Under the pieces are notes generated by a model, which saw only the letters and a list, made by a program, of their open reading frames with translations, made no database searches and was not told where the DNA came from. From a virus (taxonomy: Duplodnaviria; Caudoviricetes), in IMG/VR virus record IMGVR_UViG_3300037584_004179, positions 1 to 33,942 of that record: a stretch of DNA of 33,942 nt. The stretch is one strand, 5' to 3'. Shown in pieces: positions 2,001 through 22,156 of the stretch. The position numbers were made by a program, and so were the translations under genes. Numbering within the stretch: the stretch's first letter is position 1; the number at the start of each line of letters is the position of its first letter.

Positions 2001-3468
2001 AATATCTATATTCCTTAGGAGGTCTATCCTCGTTATCTACATAATCTGAGTATAACTCAACAAAGTTGCCTTGGCGATACCTTAGTAAGGCTTGCGTTGT
2101 TGAGTCAACATAATCGTCATTTGCACCATTCGGAAATGCAGCACACTCTTCAATAACTTCTTCTGCAAAATGTTCACCATACGGATACCATACAGCACCA
2201 CTTTCAAATATAGGAGATGTTGCATTAACACGGGTATGCTTGTCATTACCCTTACTTGGCACAAAAGGTATGACTGGTATACCCATTCTTCTAAATTCCT
2301 GAGTCAAAGGTTCACCACTAGCTTTCTGCTCAATAATAATAGATTCGGGTTCCCAATACTTATGTGCATCTAGAGCGACTGCTTTTAATTCTGGAAAATC
2401 ATATTTACCCCGTATAGCATCAAGAAGAATTATATTGGGTCCCCCACCTTCATCTGGAGTAAATACACCCCAAGTAGTAATGGCTGAATAGTCAGCTGTC
2501 TCTTTCTTACTGAACGCTGTATCATAACTTTGTATGACATGCATCAAATTAGGTATGGGTCCTTTCCAAGGTCGCCACCATTCTCTTTTTAAAATTGCAC
2601 CTTCTTCACTGGTAGGGTTCTGCATATACTGAGCAGACCAGTTTCGTATTGGTAATGATGCTTTGATTTTTTCTAATTCTTCTAAATTCCAGTACTCAGG
2701 CCAGACTGGGTTCCCTGAGCCGAGGATCGCTGGGAATGAAATTTGACGCCACGTATCTGCTTTCGGTTCAGTTTGAGCCTTCAATAAACGACCTGTTAAA
2801 TCATCTTCTGCCCATCTTGTCATCACAAGCAGAATTGAGCCTCCGGGTTGTAAACGCTGTCGTGGACCTGAAGCATACCATTCAAAAGCTCTGTCCATAG
2901 CCATATCAGATAAAGAGTCTTGTTCCGTGTGTGGATCATCAATAATCAGTAAGTCCGCACCACGACCCGTGATTGACGCTCCGACGCCAGCTGCGTAATA
3001 TTCACCACCTTGGTTAGTTTCCCATCTACCTTTGGCTTTTGAATCTTCTCGTAACCTGACGTCACCAAATATTTGTTTGTATTCAGGTGAGCCTACGATG
3101 TTTCGAACCTTAGAACCAAATCGTACTGCAAGTTCTGTGTTATGTGATACTTGCATAATTTTCATTTTAGGAAACTTCCCTATCATCCATGCTGGAAAAT
3201 AAATTGAAGCAAATTCTGATTTGGTATGTCTAGGAGGCATATTTATTATGAGCCTCCCTTTTTTATCTGCAGCCACTTTAGTAAATTCATTTGCAATTAT
3301 TTGGTGATGACCCCAGTTATCCCTTAGTTTGGTTTTACGATATATAAAATCGGGCCACATCTCTTTTACAAAATATAAAAAATTGTCTTGGCACAGTTTT
3401 ATGTTTTTTATCAAGAGCCTCTCTACTTCGAGCCTCAATTTGTCTGTGGTCAAATTATTAATTGACAT
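1993..3468 (-). CDS. terL: Terminase large subunit
   Basis: INMPPRHTKS Walker A, LLIIDDP Walker B, VMTRW motif, C-terminal RNase H-like nuclease (SYDTA..DYSA..DDYVD). The ATG at 3468 is preferred over the ORF-track start at 3477. Confidence 0.95.
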   Translation of the reverse strand: MSINNLTTDKLRLEVERLLIKNIKLCQDNFLYFVKEMWPDFIYRKTKLRDNWGHHQIIANEFTKVAADKKGRLIINMPPRHTKSEFASIYFPAWMIGKFPKMKIMQVSHNTELAVRFGSKVRNIVGSPEYKQIFGDVRLREDSKAKGRWETNQGGEYYAAGVGASITGRGADLLIIDDPHTEQDSLSDMAMDRAFEWYASGPRQRLQPGGSILLVMTRWAEDDLTGRLLKAQTEPKADTWRQISFPAILGSGNPVWPEYWNLEELEKIKASLPIRNWSAQYMQNPTSEEGAILKREWWRPWKGPIPNLMHVIQSYDTAFSKKETADYSAITTWGVFTPDEGGGPNIILLDAIRGKYDFPELKAVALDAHKYWEPESIIIEQKASGEPLTQEFRRMGIPVIPFVPSKGNDKHTRVNATSPIFESGAVWYPYGEHFAEEVIEECAAFPNGANDDYVDSTTQALLRYRQGNFVELYSDYVDNEDRPPKEYRYYG

Positions 3469-3475
3469 ACAAAAC

Positions 3476-3504
3476 ACTATAATCTAGGTCATAAGAAAAT
3501 GCAA
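3476..3504 (-). promoter_or_regulatory. Sigma70-type promoter for terL (probably leaderless transcript)
   Basis: TTGCAT-17 bp-TATAGT, with ATG 7 nt after the -10 box and no Shine-Dalgarno sequence. Confidence 0.6.
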
Positions 3505-3849: not shown

Positions 3850-4104
3850 TTATCTAAGTATTGATATTCTAACTTGATGTAATGCACTTTGAACGTCATT
3901 CATTAAGGCTTGTGATTGTTCATTGTTATAATTAGAACAATGTTCAACGATTATATCTTCTAATACTTTTGCGACTAGAGCATTGTTTAACCTTAATTGA
4001 GAATGAGGTTCTCTAACATTACGTTCATTAGGTTGTTCAATCTCACTACTATCATTGATAGTAGTGAGGTTAGTATTAATAATAGTATCTAATAAGTTTG
4101 GCAT
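3850..4104 (-). CDS. Hypothetical protein (84 aa)
   Basis: ORF coupled to the upstream gene (TAATG overlap) and followed by a terminator. Confidence 0.75.
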   Translation of the reverse strand: MPNLLDTIINTNLTTINDSSEIEQPNERNVREPHSQLRLNNALVAKVLEDIIVEHCSNYNNEQSQALMNDVQSALHQVRISILR

Positions 4105-4508
4105 TATTTACCAACTTTCTTAATGTCATACTTTATTTCAACTGATTTAACTGCTTTTAAACAGTCTGCATAAACATTAGGATACTTCTCTTTTAATTTC
4201 TTAGTGTCTATTCTACCAGAAATTAAAATAGGTTGTTTGTTTGCATCAAGTAATTTAGTACCATTACCATTTACTGCATAACTACTTTCTCTAGTAATCT
4301 TAGAAATTGTAGTGCCTTTATATTTAGCAACCTTTGTGATATTAATCATAGAGGTATTTAAATCATCAAATACTTCTAGAATTAAAGGTTTCATATTAGT
4401 TAGTATTTTTTGCTTATCTAAAACTTCTTGTTTTAGTTCGCCATACTTAACAATAAATTCTTCCTTGAACTTAGTTAAGTAAGTATTTTTTAGTTTTAAT
4501 TGTGTCAT
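4104..4508 (-). CDS. Hypothetical basic protein (134 aa)
   Basis: ORF with AAAGGT SD-like sequence and an upstream -10 box; Lys-rich. Confidence 0.8.
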   Translation of the reverse strand: MTQLKLKNTYLTKFKEEFIVKYGELKQEVLDKQKILTNMKPLILEVFDDLNTSMINITKVAKYKGTTISKITRESSYAVNGNGTKLLDANKQPILISGRIDTKKLKEKYPNVYADCLKAVKSVEIKYDIKKVGK

Positions 4509-4529
4509 AATTACTACCTTTCATTGTTT

Positions 4530-4551
4530 AATTGTTAACACATATATAGTA
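4530..4551 (-). promoter_or_regulatory. Early promoter 1 (-10 box plus TGTTAACAATT motif)
   Basis: TACTAT (4546-4551), 5 nt, TGTTAACAATT (4540-4530). The -35 box is poor; long A-tracts lie upstream. Confidence 0.6.
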
Positions 4552-4637
4552 GACCACATTTTTATAATAACACCAAACACTTTTTTTATTTTTTTTGACT
4601 TTATTTTTTTGTGTTTTTTTTTACTGGTAGAATGATC

Positions 4638-4710
4638 TGGCGCGCGCACCGCTGCTGGTTAATGAAAACCAACAAACGGCAAACGGGACGGCAAACGGGA
4701 TACGGGAAAT
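4638..4710 (+). repeat. GC-rich bipartite element A (CGCTGC plus ACGG repeats)
   Basis: CGCTGC at 4650, then AAACGGC AAACGGG ACGGC AAACGGGA TACGGGAAA. Confidence 0.8.
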
Positions 4711-4714
4711 ATAT

Positions 4715-4786
4715 TTATCTGATTAGTAAAAAGAAAATGAGAACTGCTAGAAATACTCCTAGCAGTTCAAGGAAGGAACTTAACAT
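4715..4786 (-). CDS. Putative 23-aa membrane peptide MLSSFLELLGVFLAVLIFFLLIR
   Basis: Hand-translated. ATG overlaps the end of the 191-aa gene, with GGTGG upstream; one hydrophobic helix. Confidence 0.5.
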   Translation of the reverse strand: MLSSFLELLGVFLAVLIFFLLIR

Positions 4787-5355
4787 ATTGAAAAACCACC
4801 ACTACAACGAGCGAACAGTATAAACTCTTTGACGTTGTCAATCTCAAATGGATAAGAACTAGCCCAATTTTTTTGTTTTTGAAGTTCTTGCCAATTTGTA
4901 AATTCTTCTTTTGGCAAATCTTTTGGAGCAACTCCGTCGTGAGCATCAACTATTTCTTTCATTTTACTTTTTAAAATATCGTTATGCTTTTTAGCTTTCT
5001 CCATTTGTGCATCGTGTTCTTCTTTTAACTTGAGCAACTCGCCTTTATCCAAGACTTCCTGCAATCTGTTTGCAATTTTAACTGCAATCTTGTCCGAATA
5101 TTCTTTGCCGTCATTATAATGTAAACTTTTTCTTTGCTCGTCAGTTAAAAAATCTTTACATTTATCTTCTATTAAATATGCCAATGGTCTCCACCACCAC
5201 ACATTATTACGAAAGTAATGTCCAGGATTTTCTTCTTCAAAGATATTTGAAGCTCTCACATAATTATCTTTATCTTTATCGGTAGCAGTATTCCAATCAA
5301 TAGATGGTTTAACGCCTTTTAGTTTTGGATTAAGTCCGTATAAATCGAAACCCAT
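4780..5355 (-). CDS. Conserved phage hypothetical protein (191 aa)
   Basis: MGFDLYG..YFRNNVWWWRPL..YPF..NVKEF..SGGF.IC pattern typical of a phage early-protein family; AAGGAG SD. Confidence 0.85.
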   Translation of the reverse strand: MGFDLYGLNPKLKGVKPSIDWNTATDKDKDNYVRASNIFEEENPGHYFRNNVWWWRPLAYLIEDKCKDFLTDEQRKSLHYNDGKEYSDKIAVKIANRLQEVLDKGELLKLKEEHDAQMEKAKKHNDILKSKMKEIVDAHDGVAPKDLPKEEFTNWQELQKQKNWASSYPFEIDNVKEFILFARCSGGFSIC

Positions 5356-5371
5356 TTTTTTCTCCTTTATA

Positions 5372-5415
5372 AATTGTTAACAACTCTATTATATAAAGAA
5401 TAAAATTGCAGTCAA
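5372..5415 (-). promoter_or_regulatory. Early promoter 2 with TGTTAACAATT motif
   Basis: TTGACT-16 bp-TATAAT, 5 nt, TGTTAACAATT, then AAGGAG SD. Confidence 0.8.
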
Positions 5416-5456
5416 GAAAAAAATTTTTTAACAATCCATATTTTTCTCCAGAAAAG

Positions 5457-5533
5457 TTCCCCGCTGCGCCAGGCGACAGATTGGATGAAGAAAAAAAGAA
5501 AGAGCAGCCTCCACAAACGGGAAACGGGAAACG
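5457..5533 (+). repeat. GC-rich bipartite element B
   Basis: TTCCCCGCTGCGCC at 5457, then AAACGGGAAACGGGAAACG at 5515-5533. Confidence 0.8.
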
Positions 5534-5638
5534 TTATAAAAATGAAAACACCACACAGGCAATCACCACGGCTAAGAAAGCACTCAGCCGTGGAAAAAAT
5601 ATTGCCATTATTATTATAGTAAGTATGAAAGCCATCAT
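5534..5638 (-). CDS. Putative 34-aa membrane peptide MMAFILTIIIMAIFFPRLSAFLAVVIACVVFSFL
   Basis: Hand-translated. ATGA overlap with the upstream stop and GGAGGA upstream; almost entirely hydrophobic. Confidence 0.6.
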   Translation of the reverse strand: MMAFILTIIIMAIFFPRLSAFLAVVIACVVFSFL

Positions 5639-5922
5639 GCGATCTGCTGGTCCTCCTCGTAATCTTGAACAAGGGACCTTTCAATCTCTGCCCAATTAAC
5701 GGCATCCAGGAACGTGTACGCATAATCACGACCGAACCGCTGGACAGGCACATGTTCCAATGTTCTAAACTCCTCATCCAGCAACTCAGTGCAATACGCT
5801 TTTAATTCGTCACGATCAAAGTCTGGTGCTAGATGTTCGACACTAGCAAAGTTATCAATCATTTCTAGCTTTACACGCCACGTCTCGTAGTTGGTCCAGC
5901 CATTATAAGTATTGTCAGTCAT
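5635..5922 (-). CDS. Phage early hypothetical protein with YNGWTNYETW motif (95 aa, acidic)
   Basis: N-terminal YNGWTNYETW is a recurrent motif in small phage proteins. Confidence 0.85.
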   Translation of the reverse strand: MTDNTYNGWTNYETWRVKLEMIDNFASVEHLAPDFDRDELKAYCTELLDEEFRTLEHVPVQRFGRDYAYTFLDAVNWAEIERSLVQDYEEDQQIA

Positions 5923-6151
5923 GTTTTACCCTTTCTTCTTCTAAATATTTAAGTTTGTCTACTAAATTCATTAGAGCAAACATAGTTGCGTTTGTATTAG
6001 TTGGTGCACAGTCAAAACCATATTCAATAGAAGATTGATTCAAAGCTTGCCACACATTTATACATTCATATTTTTTTGCGTGAGCTTGATTTATTATTTT
6101 ACTAACTTCACTCATAACCCACTCAATCTGTTTTTCGTTTTTTTTACTCAT
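5915..6151 (-). CDS. Hypothetical protein (78 aa, DCAP motif)
   Basis: ORF overlapping both neighbours in operon fashion. Confidence 0.75.
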   Translation of the reverse strand: MSKKNEKQIEWVMSEVSKIINQAHAKKYECINVWQALNQSSIEYGFDCAPTNTNATMFALMNLVDKLKYLEEERVKHD

Positions 6152-6318
6152 GCCTGCACCATCCTAGCTTTTATTATATCCGCCTGCCATTCTTCATGAC
6201 ACACGTCACATATCTTGCCTTTGAACAATGGCCAGCCCTCTTGTCCCAAGGTCCAGAATTGATTTTTAGCATTTTTTTCTATTGGCTGCTTGCAGCAGCT
6301 GCATATATTTTCGGACAT
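6148..6318 (-). CDS. Small putative Zn-binding protein (56 aa)
   Basis: CSCC and CDVC motifs. The ATG at 6318 follows an AGGAG SD and is preferred over the 6351 start. Confidence 0.75.
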   Translation of the reverse strand: MSENICSCCKQPIEKNAKNQFWTLGQEGWPLFKGKICDVCHEEWQADIIKARMVQA

Positions 6319-6350
6319 AATTGCTTCTCCTATATTAAAGTTAATATCCA

Positions 6351-6395
6351 AATTGTTAACAGCCTGAATATAACTCAGGATCCTGATCCAGTCAA
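6351..6395 (-). promoter_or_regulatory. Early promoter 3 with TGTTAACAATT motif
   Basis: TTGACT-17 bp-TATATT, 5 nt, TGTTAACAATT. The spacer holds the palindrome TCAGGATCCTGA. Confidence 0.8.
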
Positions 6396-6465
6396 CAACT
6401 TTTTTACAGCGTGAAGAAAACTGCAGAAAACTAAAGAGTTCGGGAACTTTACAGGGAGCAGAACC

Positions 6466-6544
6466 TTCCCCGCTGCGCGCTGGTCAGTCAGATGGATTGA
6501 AAAAGTCCCAGAAAACTGCAACTTTGTACGGGAAACGGGAAACC
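6466..6544 (+). repeat. GC-rich bipartite element C
   Basis: TTCCCCGCTGCGCG at 6466, then TGTACGGGAAACGGGAAAC from 6525. Confidence 0.8.
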
Positions 6545-6548
6545 AGCT

Positions 6549-6935
6549 TCACGCTGCAGCGCGCCTGGCCAGCTCGATCAGGATCGATGGTAAAATGGTA
6601 GCGGGTTTAGTGTACGGGAAACGGGAAACGGGAAACGGGAGACCAGAATCACGGATCTCGAGAATTTTGAACTCTCTCTTCAAGGGGGAGTTATGCAAGA
6701 TAAAAGCTTTACCACCAGCTCGTTGTCTTTTGATTATCCAATTAATTTGGTATTTTGATATGCCGTAATTCTTGTCATCATTTGACTTTAACTCAAACCA
6801 AAATTCATTACCTTCGATACAAGCGTTAACATCAGGGATTCCGTTGATTGTACTGGACTCAATTCTAATGAGATGCCAATCCCGATAGGGTTTTTGAATC
6901 GTGTTAATAAGTCTCCATATTTGGGACTCTCTCAT
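6549..6935 (-). CDS. VRR-NUC / Holliday-junction-resolvase-like PD-(D/E)XK nuclease
   Basis: RIE..GIPDV..FWFELK..Q..W..GG pattern. Confidence 0.8.
   Translation of the reverse strand: MRESQIWRLINTIQKPYRDWHLIRIESSTINGIPDVNACIEGNEFWFELKSNDDKNYGISKYQINWIIKRQRAGGKAFILHNSPLKREFKILEIRDSGLPFPVSRFPYTKPATILPSILIELARRAAA
6552..6640 (+). repeat. GC-rich bipartite element D, within the nuclease gene 3' end
   Basis: CGCTGC at 6552, then four tandem ACGGGA(A) units at 6614-6640. Confidence 0.8.
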
Positions 6936-7093
6936 TATTTATCTTTCGGTAATTGTTTAGGCAAATAAACCACTACGAATGAACCACATTCTGGACAAGT
7001 TAAATTAGTTTCCATACAAAAATCATCATTTTCATCATCAATGTCAAAATCATTTGCCCAAATTAATTCTGCTTTACAATGCCAACAATTCAT
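6935..7093 (-). CDS. Small Zn-ribbon protein (52 aa)
   Basis: Hand-translated MNCWHCKAELIW..NLTCPECGSF; start and stop overlap both neighbours. Confidence 0.8.
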   Translation of the reverse strand: MNCWHCKAELIWANDFDIDDENDDFCMETNLTCPECGSFVVVYLPKQLPKDK

Positions 7094-7617
7094 TTTTCTG
7101 GTGTCACATCAATTATGTTATCGGCGTCTTTAATTTTATTTTCTAATTCTTTGAGACGTTCTTCTAATTTATCTCTACTCATGCCCTCTAAAGTGGTATG
7201 CGCAATTTCTTTTTTGTCAACAAATTGTCCTGCTAATTGTCCAGCCCTAAACTCTGCATTTATAGCCCCGGTGTATTGTCCTTTTGTTTCAGCGCCATTT
7301 CTTAATCTTTCAAATATTTTGTATCTTCTAAGTTTATCTTTTTCATATTTTTCTTGTTCTTGCTGTAATCTAATTTCAAGATATCTACAAATATGCGGGT
7401 TTATTTTTGGGTTTGTAAGTTTACTTGCTATTGCTGCAACACTTCCCTTATCAACTTTGTTACCTTTTGTTTCATAGCCAGCTTTCAAATATGCGTCTGT
7501 TTTAGATATTGAACCCCAATTATCCACAAGTATATCAATAAACTTCTTTTGTTTATCGGTTAGATCATCAATGGTTCTTACTTCTCTTTTTCTTTGTGGC
7601 ATATCTATTTTTACCAT
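7090..7617 (-). CDS. terS: Terminase small subunit
   Basis: LTDKQKKF..AYLKAGY..ASKL..PHI..YL N-terminal HTH pattern of the Terminase_2 type. Confidence 0.8.
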   Translation of the reverse strand: MVKIDMPQRKREVRTIDDLTDKQKKFIDILVDNWGSISKTDAYLKAGYETKGNKVDKGSVAAIASKLTNPKINPHICRYLEIRLQQEQEKYEKDKLRRYKIFERLRNGAETKGQYTGAINAEFRAGQLAGQFVDKKEIAHTTLEGMSRDKLEERLKELENKIKDADNIIDVTPEK

Positions 7618-7871
7618 AATGTCATTATATACAAAGTTTTTTTTAAAAAAAGTTTCTATTTTTTGTCCATAAGGATTTCTACTTTTTAGGAATAAAATAC
7701 TAAATTTAGTAATATATATTGATATTTTTCCTACTTTTTGGGAAAAATTCCTAGTTTTTTCCTAGTTTTTTTTCTAATATTTCCTTGTTTTCTGCTATTT
7801 TTCCTAGTTTCCTAGTTTTTTGTCTATGTTTTGAACTTTTTTTAAAAAAAGTTTGTAAGGAATGACATTAT
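7616..7871. repeat. AT-rich region with iteron-like repeats bounded by an inverted repeat (origin or pac candidate)
   Basis: Arms at 7616-7654 and 7834-7871 form an imperfect inverted repeat. TTCCTAGTTT occurs at 7748, 7759, 7801 and 7809, with variants at 7676 and 7728. Confidence 0.65.
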
Positions 7872-7902
7872 AGAAAACTGGGAAAATAAAAAATAATATT
7901 TG

Positions 7903-7931
7903 TTGACATTTTAGTTAATTTAAATTATACA
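7903..7931 (+). promoter_or_regulatory. Sigma70-type promoter for the hairpin leader and 81-aa gene
   Basis: TTGACA-17 bp-TATACA (TACAAT 2 nt further on). Confidence 0.6.
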
Positions 7932-7944
7932 ATAATTGTCACAA

Positions 7945-7998
7945 ACCTCAAGTTAGCCAAATTGTTAACACCTATTTGCCTTTCCGCTAGCTTGAGGT
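7945..7998 (+). ncRNA. Structured leader or candidate small antisense RNA
   Basis: 13-bp stem ACCTCAAGTTAGC/GCTAGCTTGAGGT with one G-U pair and an inner CAAAT/ATTTG stem. It encloses AATTGTTAACA, and its 3' arm contains the GAGGT SD of the gene at 8009. Confidence 0.5.
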
Positions 7999-8008
7999 AT
8001 CATAAACA

Positions 8009-8254
8009 ATGTTTTATTTAGAAATGTTTTGCGCTATAACCGCCGTCATATCAATTTATATTTATGGTAATCAATCTTGGTACGCACCGCTTTTCGGTTT
8101 TTTCTCTCAAATATTTTGGATTGCCTGGTCAATATTAGGAGGTCATTTTCCTATGTTATTTTTGTCTGCAGCCATGATATTGACACATATGAGAAATTGC
8201 AAAAAAATGAATACTATACGAATGCTGAAACAAAAATTGTGCTTATATAAGTAG
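8009..8254 (+). CDS. Small 3-helix membrane protein, PnuC-like half-transporter appearance
   Basis: Three hydrophobic segments and a G..SQIFWI.W pattern; has its own promoter and SD. Confidence 0.65.
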   Translation: MFYLEMFCAITAVISIYIYGNQSWYAPLFGFFSQIFWIAWSILGGHFPMLFLSAAMILTHMRNCKKMNTIRMLKQKLCLYK

Positions 8255-8681
8255 TGGGAGTGTTTTTAACCACTTGTCGTAAATCATTTAAATCTTTTCT
8301 AAGTTTCTTTTTTTTAGGTGGAGGTGAAGACAACATTTTTTTGTAAATTTTGTCATAGTCAAACCATTTAAGTTGTCTAAGAGTAAAGCGCATATGTAAA
8401 TTTTTAAGAGCTTTTATGTAACACTCTTCTATATCATCAGGATCTAATCTACCCCAAGTGCAAACTAAATCAAAATCTCTTGTCCGTGACACAATCCAGT
8501 TATGAGCTTCTATCTTAATTAAAGATGGTTTTCTATCACTATGATCTATCATACAATCTTCAATTGCATTTATTACAACTGAACGCCATAATTTTTCTTC
8601 GGATTCTAATTTATCAACCGATAAGACACTTCTTGCAAAGCGTAATCCCATTTTTCTCATTAAAAGCGGTGATGGATTCAT
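8214..8681 (-). CDS. Conserved phage protein (155 aa)
   Basis: E.KLWRSV...AIED..A..W..DF..VC....DPD pattern seen in phage proteins of unknown, possibly regulatory, function. Confidence 0.75.
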   Translation of the reverse strand: MNPSPLLMRKMGLRFARSVLSVDKLESEEKLWRSVVINAIEDCMIDHSDRKPSLIKIEAHNWIVSRTRDFDLVCTWGRLDPDDIEECYIKALKNLHMRFTLRQLKWFDYDKIYKKMLSSPPPKKKKLRKDLNDLRQVVKNTPTTYISTIFVSAFV

Positions 8682-9161: not shown

Positions 9162-9491
9162 TTACTCCTGGCCCCTGTTCCGTGATTCTTGATACTTGAT
9201 ATTTCTACTTTTATACGTGGGTAACTGACTATCGCAGTTTGGGCACACGAACCTAAGGTTCTCGAGCCTATGATCTAGTTTTACACCATTTTTATGGTCT
9301 AAGACAAGTGTTAATTTTTTTCCTTGCCATTCTCCAGTATTACCGCAGGCAAAACACTCGTATGGTACTTTACCAGTTTTAATGACGCGCGTCTTAAGAC
9401 GATGTCTATTTCTATACTGAGAGTCTTTAATAAATAATTCTTTACAAGAGATACTGGTAAAACTATTCGCTGGTTTGTAATAACGAGGCAC
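9162..9491 (-). CDS. HNH-family endonuclease-like protein
   Basis: CFAC..LDHKNG..DHRLENLRFVCPNC. Confidence 0.85.
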   Translation of the reverse strand: MPRYYKPANSFTSISCKELFIKDSQYRNRHRLKTRVIKTGKVPYECFACGNTGEWQGKKLTLVLDHKNGVKLDHRLENLRFVCPNCDSQLPTYKSRNIKYQESRNRGQE

Positions 9492-9636
9492 GATTTTTAA
9501 TTTCTTGTAATTCCGTCATAGTATATCCAAATTGACTTTGTAATCGTTCAGTTGCATAACTAGGTCTTTGGATACATTTAATTAATAATTCTTTTTCTGC
9601 TTTTACAGCTAATCTAATGTAATCGTCTTCATTCAT
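9463..9636 (-). CDS. Hypothetical protein (57 aa)
   Basis: Hand-translated MNEDDYIRLAVKAEK...; TAATG overlap with the upstream gene. Confidence 0.6.
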   Translation of the reverse strand: MNEDDYIRLAVKAEKELLIKCIQRPSYATERLQSQFGYTMTELQEIKNRASLLQTSE

Positions 9637-9929
9637 TAATGCACCTGTTTACTTAATTCATGAATTTTTTCTCTTTCTACGCTAAATACTTTTTCTTTAT
9701 CTGACTTCGCATTTTTATTCATTATCATTTCAATCATAGCAAAAATACTATCAAGTGCTGCTTGTTTTGAAGGAGCACATTCTAATAGACCCTCAAGTGC
9801 AGCAAACAAACCACCTTTTAATAACGCCTCCGGATCATATTTTTTTGACATTTCAGCATATTTTCGTCCAAACTCTGTATATATTTCATGCATTTCTTCT
9901 GCCTTCATTTGTGTTTTTTTATTTTTCAT
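9636..9929 (-). CDS. Hypothetical protein (~97 aa, ECAP motif)
   Basis: The ATG at 9929 follows AGAAAGGT and is preferred over 9980. Confidence 0.75.
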   Translation of the reverse strand: MKNKKTQMKAEEMHEIYTEFGRKYAEMSKKYDPEALLKGGLFAALEGLLECAPSKQAALDSIFAMIEMIMNKNAKSDKEKVFSVEREKIHELSKQVH

Positions 9930-9954
9930 TTTATTTACCTTTCTTTTATTAATA

Positions 9955-10131
9955 TTAACACCAATATTGAACTTCATCATTGTAGTCTATTCTGCAATCA
10001 CCAACTGACCCTTCACCTTGACAGGCAGGACAAATGTGTGTGTTTTCAGCTGTAATAGGTTTATTATGATCAGTGCGAATATACCCATTACCTTTACATT
10101 CTTCACATATTATATCTTTTCGTCTACTCAT
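9955..10131 (-). CDS. DnaJ-type zinc-finger protein (58 aa)
   Basis: Hand-translated; two CxxCxGxG motifs (CEECKGNG, CPACQGEG) and GGAGG SD. Confidence 0.8.
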   Translation of the reverse strand: MSRRKDIICEECKGNGYIRTDHNKPITAENTHICPACQGEGSVGDCRIDYNDEVQYWC

Positions 10132-10569: not shown

Positions 10570-10829
10570 TCTACTTCTCTCGCAAAAACATATACAGAAT
10601 CGTCCCAGTTTTGACATTTGTGCACTGTTAACGCTTTCATCTTTTTACCATTATATTCGAACTGTGAATCCGTTATAATTTCAAGATCAAGTGGTATCGA
10701 TATATGAATACCTTTTCTGTAATCTTCATGCGCAAGAGACATGTCTAAATAACCTGTCCCATACTTTTTGTTATTAATAAAAGCTAAGTAAGGCGCCCAT
10801 CTTATCTGTTTCTTTTCTGCTTCAGTCAT
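10566..10829 (-). CDS. Hypothetical protein (87 aa)
   Basis: GGAGG SD and ATGA overlaps. Confidence 0.7.
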   Translation of the reverse strand: MTEAEKKQIRWAPYLAFINNKKYGTGYLDMSLAHEDYRKGIHISIPLDLEIITDSQFEYNGKKMKALTVHKCQNWDDSVYVFAREVE

Positions 10830-11020
10830 TTTTCCTCCAATAAAAGTTCTTTGTATTTTTTTTCTGGTAGTTTTTCTTTTTTAGCTTGAAAACTAATGTA
10901 ATCGTAAATTAATTTTTCAATGAATGCGCCAGGTGTTCTATATTTCTTTTTGCATAAACCTTTTAATAATGCATAATTTTCAGAACGCACTGCCACAGAT
11001 TTCCATTTATTTATGTCCAT
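10826..11020 (-). CDS. Small ribbon-helix-helix-like DNA-binding protein (64 aa)
   Basis: MDINKWKSVAVRSENYALLKGLC..RTPGAFIEKLI fits a strand-helix-helix pattern; the ATG at 11020 follows GGAGA. Confidence 0.65.
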   Translation of the reverse strand: MDINKWKSVAVRSENYALLKGLCKKKYRTPGAFIEKLIYDYISFQAKKEKLPEKKYKELLLEEK

Positions 11021-11033
11021 AATTTCTCCATTT

Positions 11034-11879
11034 CTAATCGTGACAAAAACATGTATCAGTTGCTTGATCAAACTCAAACAACTCAAGTTGATCTTTAGTG
11101 TTTTGTAGTAATTTAGCGTAGCTTGGTCTGTCTTTACGAAAGTATGCAGCACGATCATTTCCCGTGCCCATCTTCTTACTTTCTTGAGCTATCCACCAGT
11201 CAGCTAATTTAGGGTCTGATTTTATTATGTTTCTTATTGTGTTTGCACCTTTTAAAAAACATAAATCACAATTACCTTGTGGTGTTTTACCACCAATATT
11301 TGGTAAACGTAAATCAAAATCATTATCCTTCCAAAAATCAAAAACATCTTTCACTGCAATTTTAGCAGTATGCAAAGGTGCCTCTGTTTCCCATCTTTCT
11401 TTTTTATTACGATTTGATAATCTCGCAACTCTGTGCGGTTCATCATACCTTAAACCTATATAACTCATCCAATGTTCAAAACCTAAATGAAACATACAAT
11501 ATGCGCGCATAGGTTTTATTTTTAAATAAGATGTACAGTATCTTGTAACAGGGTTAGGTAAAAACCTTTTACTATCTATTAGTTTTTCATAAGGCTCACC
11601 ATTCCTTGCAGCTGTTTCGTAATCAACAATTTTTAAATGATTTTCTGCTTTGTCATCCCACTCCATCCACACAATAGGAACATCCCAACGTGTAGAACAC
11701 TCATGTACAAAATCTAAAGTTTGCGGCATTTCTTTACCAGTGTTAGCAAAACAAACTGGTAAATCTTTTGGTAGTTTATTATCAAAAGCATCTAATATTT
11801 TTCTTAACATAAAACCAGATGTTCTACCACCAGAAAAGTTTATAACACCAGGAGTTTCTAACAAAAAAGGGTTAGTCAT
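11034..11879 (-). CDS. PAPS-reductase / NinC-like adenine-nucleotide alpha-hydrolase
   Basis: FSGGRTSG PP-loop, ANTGKE, RYCT..LK, IGLRYDE..R, GNCDLCFLK and C-terminal CFC. Confidence 0.85.
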   Translation of the reverse strand: MTNPFLLETPGVINFSGGRTSGFMLRKILDAFDNKLPKDLPVCFANTGKEMPQTLDFVHECSTRWDVPIVWMEWDDKAENHLKIVDYETAARNGEPYEKLIDSKRFLPNPVTRYCTSYLKIKPMRAYCMFHLGFEHWMSYIGLRYDEPHRVARLSNRNKKERWETEAPLHTAKIAVKDVFDFWKDNDFDLRLPNIGGKTPQGNCDLCFLKGANTIRNIIKSDPKLADWWIAQESKKMGTGNDRAAYFRKDRPSYAKLLQNTKDQLELFEFDQATDTCFCHD

Positions 11880-21793: not shown

Positions 21794-22156
21794 TTATTTT
21801 TTTTTCATTAACATGTTAGCAGCTTTACGCACATCTGCTGTTGTAAGTCTAGCACCCACCCCAGCACTTTCTAAAGCCTTCATAAATGTTGCTCTTGTGA
21901 ATGATGCTTGGTTTGATGCTTTTTGTGCTTGCTTACCACTATTCTTCATAAAAGTAGCCGTGCCTTTTGACGCTTTCATCATTTTGGCTCCACCTTTGGC
22001 GTAACCTTTAGACTTCATCATTTTTCCGCCCATAGCTTTCATCATTTTGGCTCCACCTTTAGCATAGCCTTTTGATTTCATCATTCGACCGCTTTTGGCT
22101 TTCATCATTTTGGCTCCACCTTTAGAGTAGCCTTTTGATTTCATACCTCTTTTCAT
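21794..22156 (-). CDS. Small very basic repeat protein (120 aa), putative virion core / DNA-binding
   Basis: Three 21-aa repeats containing MKSKGY(A/S)KGGAKMMKA; AAGGAG SD; upstream TTTACT-17-TAGAAT. Confidence 0.8.
   Translation of the reverse strand: MKRGMKSKGYSKGGAKMMKAKSGRMMKSKGYAKGGAKMMKAMGGKMMKSKGYAKGGAKMMKASKGTATFMKNSGKQAQKASNQASFTRATFMKALESAGVGARLTTADVRKAANMLMKKK
21972..22146. repeat. 63-bp tandem repeat, about 3 copies
   Basis: GCTTTCATCATTTTGGCTCCACCTTT starts at 21972, 22035 and 22098. Confidence 0.9.

What the first reader, a model, noticed from the sequence alone, without database searches (positions are those of the whole stretch)
4530..7998. Three early transcripts share a 5' motif whose complement is displayed by an oppositely transcribed hairpin RNA
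Seen: TGTTAACAATT begins exactly 5 nt after the -10 box of three minus-strand promoters (4540, 5382, 6361), so it covers the expected transcription start. The fourth copy (7960-7970) is not in that context. It is transcribed in the opposite sense from the + promoter at 7903, inside a 13-bp hairpin. That RNA would be complementary over 12, 12 and 14 nt (CCAAAUUGUUAACA) to the three sites. Inference: a one-to-many antisense switch that shuts off early cassettes or, reciprocally, early mRNAs opening the hairpin to free the sequestered SD. The alternative is that the TGTTAACA palindrome is a repressor operator, with the RHH-like protein at 10826-11020 as a candidate.
Basis: partly seen in the sequence, partly recalled or inferred. 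Interest (0 to 1): 0.8.

Follow-up and report, generated by a model that had tools for sequence, protein, structure and literature searches.

The report
Pelagiphage RNA mirrors early-gene leaders
A very common kind of ocean virus that likely infects SAR11 bacteria carries a predicted small hairpin RNA whose loop is complementary to the starts of its own likely-early genes; loop and gene starts change together from virus to virus, so the RNA likely pairs with those messages and would turn them down together.

Summary
Observation confirmed and extended. The window is an HTVC023P-like phage. The four 11-mers, the hairpin (7945-7998) and the opposed promoter are real. Relatives keep an element at this position whose seed follows each phage's own cassette leaders through about ten motifs: mean match 8.8 nt cognate vs 7.2±0.15 permuted (35 clusters), and 9.75 vs 7.8±0.25 on one orthologous gene (28 clusters). 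A TTGAC promoter points along the antisense strand in 19 of 33 carriers (1 on the sense strand). Stems have 46 G·U vs 7 A·C on that strand. Cultured HTVC023P has a variant. The operator and the 'freed SD' alternatives fail across relatives. Against: no stranded RNA data, modest binding energies, no G·U excess in target duplexes, one mismatched phage (L023), no element in HTVC027P. Best reading: a multi-target antisense sRNA repressing early translation (0.68). It works like P1 C4 but is not C4. This scan noted similar anti-leader hairpins in other phages (unreviewed).

The parts
7903..7931 (+). Predicted sigma70-type promoter of the RNA (TTGACA-17-TATACA)
   Evidence: TTGAC-type promoter on this strand in 19 of 33 carriers, 1 on the other strand, 1.3 expected
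7938..8003 (+). Candidate small RNA (5' end inferred from the promoter; 3' end unknown, no U tract in this lineage)
7945..7957 (+). 5' arm of the 13-bp stem
7986..7998 (+). 3' arm of the 13-bp stem
7957..7972 (+). Seed A': complement of the leader motif
7973..7985 (+).
6348..6395 (-). Promoter (6395-6367) and 14-nt target (6361-6348) ahead of ORFs 6148-6318, 5915-6151, 5635-5922
5371..5415 (-). Promoter (5415-5388) and 12-nt target (5382-5371) just upstream of the SD of ORF 4780-5355
4514..4551 (-). -10 box (4551-4546), 11-nt A target (4540-4530) and 9-bp B' target over the SD (4522-4514) of ORF 4104-4508
9932..9962 (-). Fourth predicted target: 12-bp B' match over the SD (9943-9932, one G.U) and 10-bp A' match (9962-9953, one G.U, read by eye) ahead of ORF 9636-9929
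4780..5355 (-). Conserved cassette gene (191 aa, 34% identical to HTVC023P gp23); its leader was used for the single-gene covariation test
8009..8254 (+). Optional 81-aa ORF behind the hairpin (phrog_2421, unknown function); present in 17 of 34 carriers
7090..7617 (-). Terminase small subunit (anchor for finding relatives)

Best explanation
The hairpin at 7945-7998 is likely a phage small RNA, predicted to be made from the opposed promoter at 7903, whose open loop would pair with the 5' leaders and ribosome-binding sites of several of the phage's own likely-early mRNAs and so would lower their translation together. Shown by sequence: complementarity, its covariation across relatives, conserved position, promoter-like site and stem asymmetry. 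Inferred: (1) the RNA is made; (2) the targets are early transcripts (synteny with the early cassette of HTVC027P, strong host-type promoters); (3) pairing blocks 30S loading (arm A' covers the bases just upstream of the SD or the 5' end, arm B' the SD); (4) because a stable RNA builds up while early mRNAs turn over, it acts as a delayed brake on the cassette. Two layouts exist: one long hairpin with a 22-49-nt loop (this phage), or 5' hairpin + single-stranded anti-SD seed + terminator-like hairpin, often U-tailed. In the first layout A' lies 5' of B' while the targets read A then B, so both arms could bind one mRNA only across the closing stem as a three-way junction (speculative), or each arm serves different targets.
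For: Cognate vs permuted match 8.79 vs 7.17±0.15 nt, 0 of 20,000 permutations, 35 clusters. Region in the top 5% of its own locus's windows in 23 of 35 and top 1% in 15 of 35; for this window best of 2,180. One orthologous gene: 9.75 vs 7.80±0.25, 28 clusters, 0 of 20,000; 8 clusters not in the first test 9 of 20,000. Paired changes between neighbours on the TerS tree, e.g. L020/L141 vs L019/L021 (support 100/99) and a 1-nt insertion in both seed and leaders of L012/L016. Stems: 46 G.U vs 7 A.C on the antisense strand in 34 of 81 distinct stems that passed the score cut; shuffles 435:340, p = 1.7e-6. Antisense promoter 19 vs 1 of 33. Seeds less paired than their flanks in 24 of 25. 31 of 58 matches of 9 nt or more overlap the SD; median span -18 to -8 from the start codon. 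In this window four of the five best-scoring of 41 start regions are the three cassette heads and ORF 9636-9929 occupying ranks 1-4; a homologue of that ORF sits in the cassette of L013 with a leader matching L013's own seed. HTVC023P: best of 5,650 windows, matches of 10, 13, 10 and 15 nt to four of six leaders. Syntenic HTVC027P genes gp35/37/39 are Early and fall about 16-24-fold by the last time point.
Against: No stranded RNA or TSS data: one metatranscriptome held as contigs, which cannot show strand or ends. Net binding is modest: -5.8 to -7.3 kcal/mol at 37 C and -6.9 to -9.3 at 20 C after opening costs; cofold, which cannot model loop pairing, gains only 0 to -1.6. Mismatches inside cognate duplexes are not biased to G.U: 18 G.U vs 28 A.C in 57 helices, non-cognate 470:472, p = 0.18, so the duplexes themselves do not distinguish RNA pairing from DNA repeats. 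12 of 35 clusters are not in the top 5%; L023 has an intact element of the L025/L255 type but leaders of the L020/L141 type. No comparable element in HTVC027P, whose early genes still decline. Clusters are related, so permutation p-values overstate independence; the 33-34 carriers were picked by me. In HTVC023P the seed is predicted partly paired. Repression rather than activation or stabilisation is assumed.
Confidence: 0.68

Rival explanations
1. The motif is a DNA operator for a phage repressor (the RHH-like protein at 10826-11020 or another), and the fourth copy is one more operator.
For: TGTTAACA is a palindrome and overlaps the predicted start site of three promoters. The protein has weak structural look-alikes among RHH proteins (ParD2 Z 3.4, omega Z 3.0). 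Duplex mismatches show no G.U bias.
Against: Most relatives' motifs are not palindromic and 31 of 58 overlap the SD. The same WKSVAVR strand occurs with four different motifs (window, L007, L033, L098/L110), and a different strand with the same motif (L008). An operator does not explain the stem, its strand asymmetry or the opposed promoter.
Confidence: 0.07
2. The element is a relic or recombination copy of an early leader (direct DNA repeat kept alike by gene conversion) beside a terminator, with no regulatory pairing.
For: All matches are direct DNA repeats; cassettes are mosaic; L023 is mismatched; no G.U bias in duplexes.
Against: The copy has no conserved start codon or frame on the sense strand (read), lies in the unpaired part, has a promoter and G.U-type stems on the opposite strand, and in this layout has motif and SD in the reverse order from the leaders.
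Confidence: 0.09
3. The hairpin is a cis switch in the 5' UTR of ORF 8009-8254; early mRNAs open it and free that ORF's SD or start codon.
For: In this window GAGGT lies in the 3' stem arm 10 nt before the ATG; in L013, L015 and L017 an ATG falls in the 3' arm.
Against: The ORF is absent in 17 of 34 carriers; the SD is not kept; the targets pair only with the loop and cofolding does not open most of the stem.
Confidence: 0.05
4. The RNA pairs with the leaders but activates, stabilises or sponges rather than represses; or, in this layout, it acts on RNA polymerase as a 6S-like promoter mimic whose loop templates the same 5' sequence.
For: In this layout arm A' matches the very 5' end, up to 30-43 nt from the start codon at 6361; pairing a 5' end could shield it from decay (general knowledge). 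A' lies on the 5' side of the loop next to the stem, as the 6S template strand does (recalled).
Against: Arm B' and all second-layout seeds cover the SD, which favours repression. The RNA is about 60 nt with one stem, far shorter than 6S (recalled); no Rfam match.
Confidence: 0.11

Closest known systems
C4 antisense RNA of phages P1/P7 (passages in PMC5320573)
   Same: Phage RNA acting in trans through two loop elements, one occluding the ribosome-binding site (b') and one giving specificity upstream (a'); a few changed bases alter specificity between phages.
   Different: C4 has three stem-loops, is about 77 nt, is cut by RNase P and serves lysogenic immunity in a temperate phage. Here one or two hairpins, no Rfam match, 3-5 dispersed targets, a phage group described as lytic (PMC12753301 abstract passage), and A'/B' in non-colinear order.
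Trans-encoded base-pairing sRNAs with an anti-SD seed and intrinsic terminator (definition in PMC12197685, parts 1-2 of 6 read)
   Same: Own promoter, short seed, several targets, separate locus; the second layout has the textbook hairpin-seed-terminator anatomy.
   Different: Seeds are mostly perfect 9-15-nt matches to the phage's own leaders and co-vary with them. The multi-target phage sRNAs described in the parts read (VpdS, PreS, DicF) act mainly on host mRNAs or through Hfq; Hfq use here is untested.
Cis-encoded phage antisense RNAs: lambda OOP and aQ, P22 sar and sas, BTP1 STnc6030 (PMC12197685 part 2; PMC7067206 passages)
   Same: Phage RNAs that regulate the phage's own mRNAs; STnc6030 gives superinfection exclusion.
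   Different: They are transcribed opposite their single target; this element lies 1.6-3.4 kb from its cassette targets.
P4 CI RNA (recalled; named in earlier scan notes)
   Same: Small structured RNA whose loops pair with short sequences in the phage's early leader.
   Different: CI is cut from the transcript it controls and causes termination; here a separate opposed gene and several transcripts.

Membership tests
C4 antisense RNA (P1/P7) | Match to the Rfam covariance model | tested here: not met
   No Rfam hit at the hairpin down to E = 5; none at gathering score in 6 related loci
C4 antisense RNA (P1/P7) | Three stem-loops (P1-P3), about 77 nt | tested here: not met
   One 13-bp stem with a 28-nt loop; relatives one or two hairpins
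C4 antisense RNA (P1/P7) | Two target-pairing elements, one over the ribosome-binding site | tested here: met
   A' and B' arms
C4 antisense RNA (P1/P7) | RNase P processing | not testable with these tools
   No RNA end data
Trans-encoded base-pairing sRNA | Separate locus with its own promoter | tested here: met
   Predicted only:
Trans-encoded base-pairing sRNA | Short accessible seed complementary to several mRNA initiation regions | tested here: met
Trans-encoded base-pairing sRNA | Intrinsic terminator giving a discrete 3' end | tested here: inconclusive
   U-tailed hairpins in many second-layout relatives, none in this window
Trans-encoded base-pairing sRNA | A discrete RNA is expressed and changes target output | not testable with these tools
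   Only unstranded contigs
Trans-encoded base-pairing sRNA | Hfq or other chaperone dependence | not tested
   Host not identified; paper search gave nothing on this
Cis-encoded antisense RNA (OOP, sar) | Transcribed from the strand opposite its target | tested here: not met
   Element at 7945-7998, targets at 4514-6361 and 9932-9962
RHH repressor-operator system | Protein has the ribbon-helix-helix fold | tested here: inconclusive
   Model pLDDT 64, no strand as a monomer; Foldseek E > 7; best RHH Z 3.0-3.4; no RHH Pfam hit
RHH repressor-operator system | DNA-reading strand co-varies with the site | tested here: not met

The most novel reading that the evidence does not exclude
The seed and leader tags form an RNA-only identity code in a lytic phage group that dominates the ocean: once one phage is established, its accumulated RNA silences the first transcripts of any later phage with the same tag (superinfection exclusion, or a carrier state in starved SAR11 cells), and escape from kin drives the paired diversification into about ten specificity groups. 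In the window's layout the RNA would grip each leader from both sides of its closing stem as a three-way junction.
Probability: 0.22. Interest if true: 0.87.

Novelty: new variant of a known kind. Interest (0 to 1): 0.68.

Why it matters
[quoted passage not shown] A protein-free, multi-target RNA switch with a co-evolving address tag would supply a mechanism, would mark early genes from sequence alone (it already flags ORF 9636-9929), and can be tested at once in cultured HTVC023P on Pelagibacter HTCC1062. A 2020 paper states that sRNA function in lytic phages is less obvious and few are predicted (PMC8244752 passages). Similar unreviewed notes from this scan in unrelated phages suggest the design may be widespread.

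Tried and rejected
Rfam: nothing relevant. RNA evidence: one marine metatranscriptome with a small share of words, held as contigs; a 2,499-nt contig spans 7813-8266 but shows neither strand nor ends; not used as support. G.U test on target duplexes: negative. The first stem finder was too loose (81:42 against a background of 490:362) and was replaced by a stricter one. Three hybridisation energies and the 'A vs g9929' energy were computed on mis-registered coordinates and are discarded. A 40-nt sliding duplex scan with the loop did not rank the three targets among its top 14 sites (it ignores accessibility and favours GC-rich sites). Covariation of the ORF 9636-9929 target could be examined in only three lineages (7 loci). 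The L131 loop variant predicts a changed leader, but its contig ends before the cassette and a pattern scan found no relative. HTVC027P: whole record searched for a complement of the gp36/gp38 leaders; best is 9 nt after gp39, no better than chance sites. A MAFFT alignment of 11 hairpins was too poor for pair counting, so no covariance model was built. RHH fold searches inconclusive. Literature: 8 searches found no description of this element; PMC9599517 and PMC12753301 have no occurrence of 'antisense' or 'small RNA'. In PMC10690425 (viral structured-RNA catalogue) six motifs were not found, but files 1, 2 and 4 of its supplement were not searched, so the element could be listed there. Subscription journals are not covered.
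Full report
Context. The window is a 33.9-kb linear virus record, 57% complete, with a family A DNA polymerase, primase, and small and large terminase. Its closest annotated relatives are Pelagibacter phages HTVC023P and HTVC027P (TerS 56% and 33% identical). HTVC023P has the same order: TerS, a cassette of small genes with their own intergenic spacers, TerL, and shares the 191-aa gene (34%). The host is therefore likely SAR11, by inference only. In HTVC027P the genes in the same position before TerL (gp35, 37, 39) are classed Early and fall from about 214,000, 182,000 and 158,000 TPM at peak to 11,000, 7,400 and 10,100 (supplement rows of PMC12753301); the window's cassette genes have no hit in the HTVC027P stretch searched, so 'early' rests on position and promoters.

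Observation. All four copies, the 5-nt spacing, the 13-bp hairpin and the opposed promoter are as described. Four copies of an 11-mer exceed 300 of 300 simulations. Caveats: the 4540 promoter lacks a good -35; the + promoter's -10 is TATACA; the promoter scan as a whole is at chance level (60 found vs 53±6.5).

Relatives. TerS searches gave 206 loci; 112 had at least 800 nt upstream and 2,000 nt downstream and fell into 70 clusters. To avoid choosing by eye I defined the test region by a landmark unrelated to the hairpin (190 nt beyond the conserved repeat block upstream of TerS) and called leaders automatically. 35 of 68 clusters had both the landmark and at least two leaders (33 dropped; HTVC023P and HTVC027P treated apart). 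The longest exact match between region and leaders averaged 8.79 nt for a phage's own leaders and 7.17±0.15 under permutation, 0 of 20,000. Against other windows of the same locus the region ranked in the top 5% in 23 of 35 and top 1% in 15 of 35. With one orthologous gene only (82 of 114 loci with both genes had the landmark; 28 clusters) the values were 9.75 vs 7.80±0.25; 21 of 28 cognate pairs reached 9 nt against 23% of non-cognate pairs; the 8 clusters absent from the first test gave 9 of 20,000, though I had already seen the hairpins of several of them and two of the eight (L111, L173) lie in coding sequence and are probably chance. The tag takes about ten forms (TGTTAACAAT, GTGTTAAACA, GTAATATTAAC, GGTGTAAAAATGTC, ATCAACATTGGG, ACCAATGGAGG, AAACGGAG, AACTAACGGA, TCAACAAAGG, AACGAAAGG), and seed and leaders change together even between neighbours on the TerS tree. 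Clusters are kin, so the p-values overstate independence. L023 is a true exception: intact element, wrong tag.

Which strand, and RNA or DNA. Among 33 carriers that I picked, a TTGAC-16/18-TA promoter points along the strand opposite to the cassette in 19, along the same strand in 1, with 1.3 expected from shuffles. With a finder that scores G.U and A.C alike, 34 of 81 distinct stems passed the cut and held 46 G.U vs 7 A.C on that strand (shuffles 435:340). Seeds are less paired than their flanks in 24 of 25 clusters (0.57 vs 0.38; seeds are AU-rich, which favours this). Many relatives show promoter, 5' hairpin, single-stranded anti-SD seed and a U-tailed hairpin on the antisense strand. Against: mismatches within cognate duplexes are not G.U-biased (18 vs 28 A.C), and no stranded RNA data exist here.

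Anatomy in this window. The loop has two arms. A' (7957-7972) matches the three leaders; B' (7973-7985) is an anti-SD, kept as CCTTTC-like text in the aligned single-hairpin relatives, and pairs 4-9 bp with the SD region of their leaders. A simple hybridisation-plus-opening model at 20 C ranks, among 41 start regions, ORF 9636-9929 first (-12.4, via B', 12 bp with one G.U), then the three cassette heads (-8.5, -7.3, -6.7), with the polymerase gene next at -6.4, so the margin is thin for the weaker ones. ORF 9636-9929 also has an A-type site; in L002 that site is a perfect 10-nt match, and in L013 the homologous gene lies inside the cassette behind a leader matching L013's own seed. B' pairs 9 bp with the SD at 4514-4522 (helix -12.2 at 20 C before opening costs). 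Leaders read A then B, while the RNA reads A' then B'; simultaneous pairing would need a junction across the closing stem, which is speculation.

Cultured phages. In HTVC023P the best of 5,650 windows lies behind gp20 on the opposite strand, ahead of a U-tailed hairpin, and matches four of six leaders by 10-15 nt; the next-best region scores 9.3 against 10.7, and the seed is predicted partly paired. It may be a 3'-UTR-derived form. HTVC027P has no such element, yet its early genes decline, so the RNA is not the only way to end the early phase in this group.

Rivals. Operator: motifs are mostly non-palindromic and often cover the SD; the candidate protein's N-terminal strand does not follow the motif; its fold is unresolved. 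Cis switch for ORF 8009-8254: ORF absent in 17 of 34 carriers, SD not kept. Repeat relic: does not explain promoter, stem strand or reversed order. Activation or a 6S-like role: possible but not favoured by SD coverage.

Comparison. It works like P1/P7 C4 (two arms, one on the ribosome-binding site, small changes set specificity; PMC5320573 passages) but fails the C4 structure and Rfam tests. It fits the general class of trans-encoded sRNAs (PMC12197685, parts 1-2 of 6). Papers seen: PMC9599517 and PMC12753301 term passages plus supplement rows of the latter; PMC8244752, PMC5320573, PMC2704228 and PMC7067206 passages; PMC10690425 listing and part of its supplements; others as listings only. 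Eight searches found no description of this element. P4 CI, 6S and the rarity of the last -10 T in alphaproteobacterial promoters are recalled, not checked. This scan holds no note on this DNA or its look-alikes but lists 159 findings with my search words, the 8 shown describing similar anti-leader hairpins in other phages; they are unreviewed and not independent evidence. The immunity reading in the section on the most novel reading was formed after seeing those notes and the C4 passages.

Verdict. A real, conserved, co-varying element; most likely a multi-target antisense sRNA that dampens the phage's early cassette (0.68). New variant of a known kind; interest 0.68.

Noticed in passing
window 7610-7877: AT-rich non-coding block upstream of TerS with repeated TTCCTA(G) units and 41-nt inverted arms (7610-7650/7837-7877, 83%); four or more T[AG]GGAA units upstream of TerS in 50 of 70 clusters. 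Candidate packaging site, origin or genome end; unexplained.
   Followed up: partly
window 4672-4707, 5513-5542, 6528-6553, 6614-6653: Tandem GGGAAAC heptamers with CCCCGCTGCGC/GCGCGC elements in the spacers upstream of each cassette promoter; such repeats in the cassette of 24 of 70 clusters; HTVC027P has CAAGCTT-type tandem repeats upstream of gp33 and gp34. Possible protein-binding or DNA-entry signals.
   Followed up: partly
L023 (element about 2141-2250; leaders in cassette): Element of the L025/L255 tag type joined to leaders of the L020/L141 type: a recombinant, an escape variant or a chimeric assembly.
   Followed up: partly
L131 6523-6580 (-): Stem nearly the same as the window's, with a loop variant (TTGAC for TTAAC) that predicts either changed leaders or a G.U pair; contig ends before the cassette.
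   Followed up: partly
window 9636-9929 (-); L013 about +1429 from TerS: The same small gene sits upstream of TerS here and inside the cassette in L013, each time with a leader matching the local seed.
   Followed up: yes
window 8009-8254 (+): Hydrophobic 81-aa ORF (phrog_2421) opposite to nearly all other genes, overlapping the 3' end of ORF 8214-8681; optional passenger behind the RNA.
   Followed up: partly
L008, L010, L013, L015, L012, L131 between landmark and promoter: An extra G/C-run hairpin (GGGGG...CCCCC around a TTTTGTCACAA-type loop) lies just upstream of the RNA's promoter in several relatives; a similar TTTTGTCACA loop is in the L137/L071 terminal hairpin, and GTCACA lies at the RNA's 5' end in this window.
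   Followed up: no
window 21794-22156 (-): 120-aa basic protein made of repeated SKGYAKGGAKMM units; possibly DNA-condensing.
   Followed up: no
window 11034-11879 (-) and 9162-9491 (-): PAPS-reductase-family gene and an HNH endonuclease.
   Followed up: no
L210 about 3440-3500 (HTVC027P, after gp39): A 9-nt complement of the gp36/gp38 SD next to a hairpin at the 3' end of the early operon; not above chance sites.
   Followed up: partly
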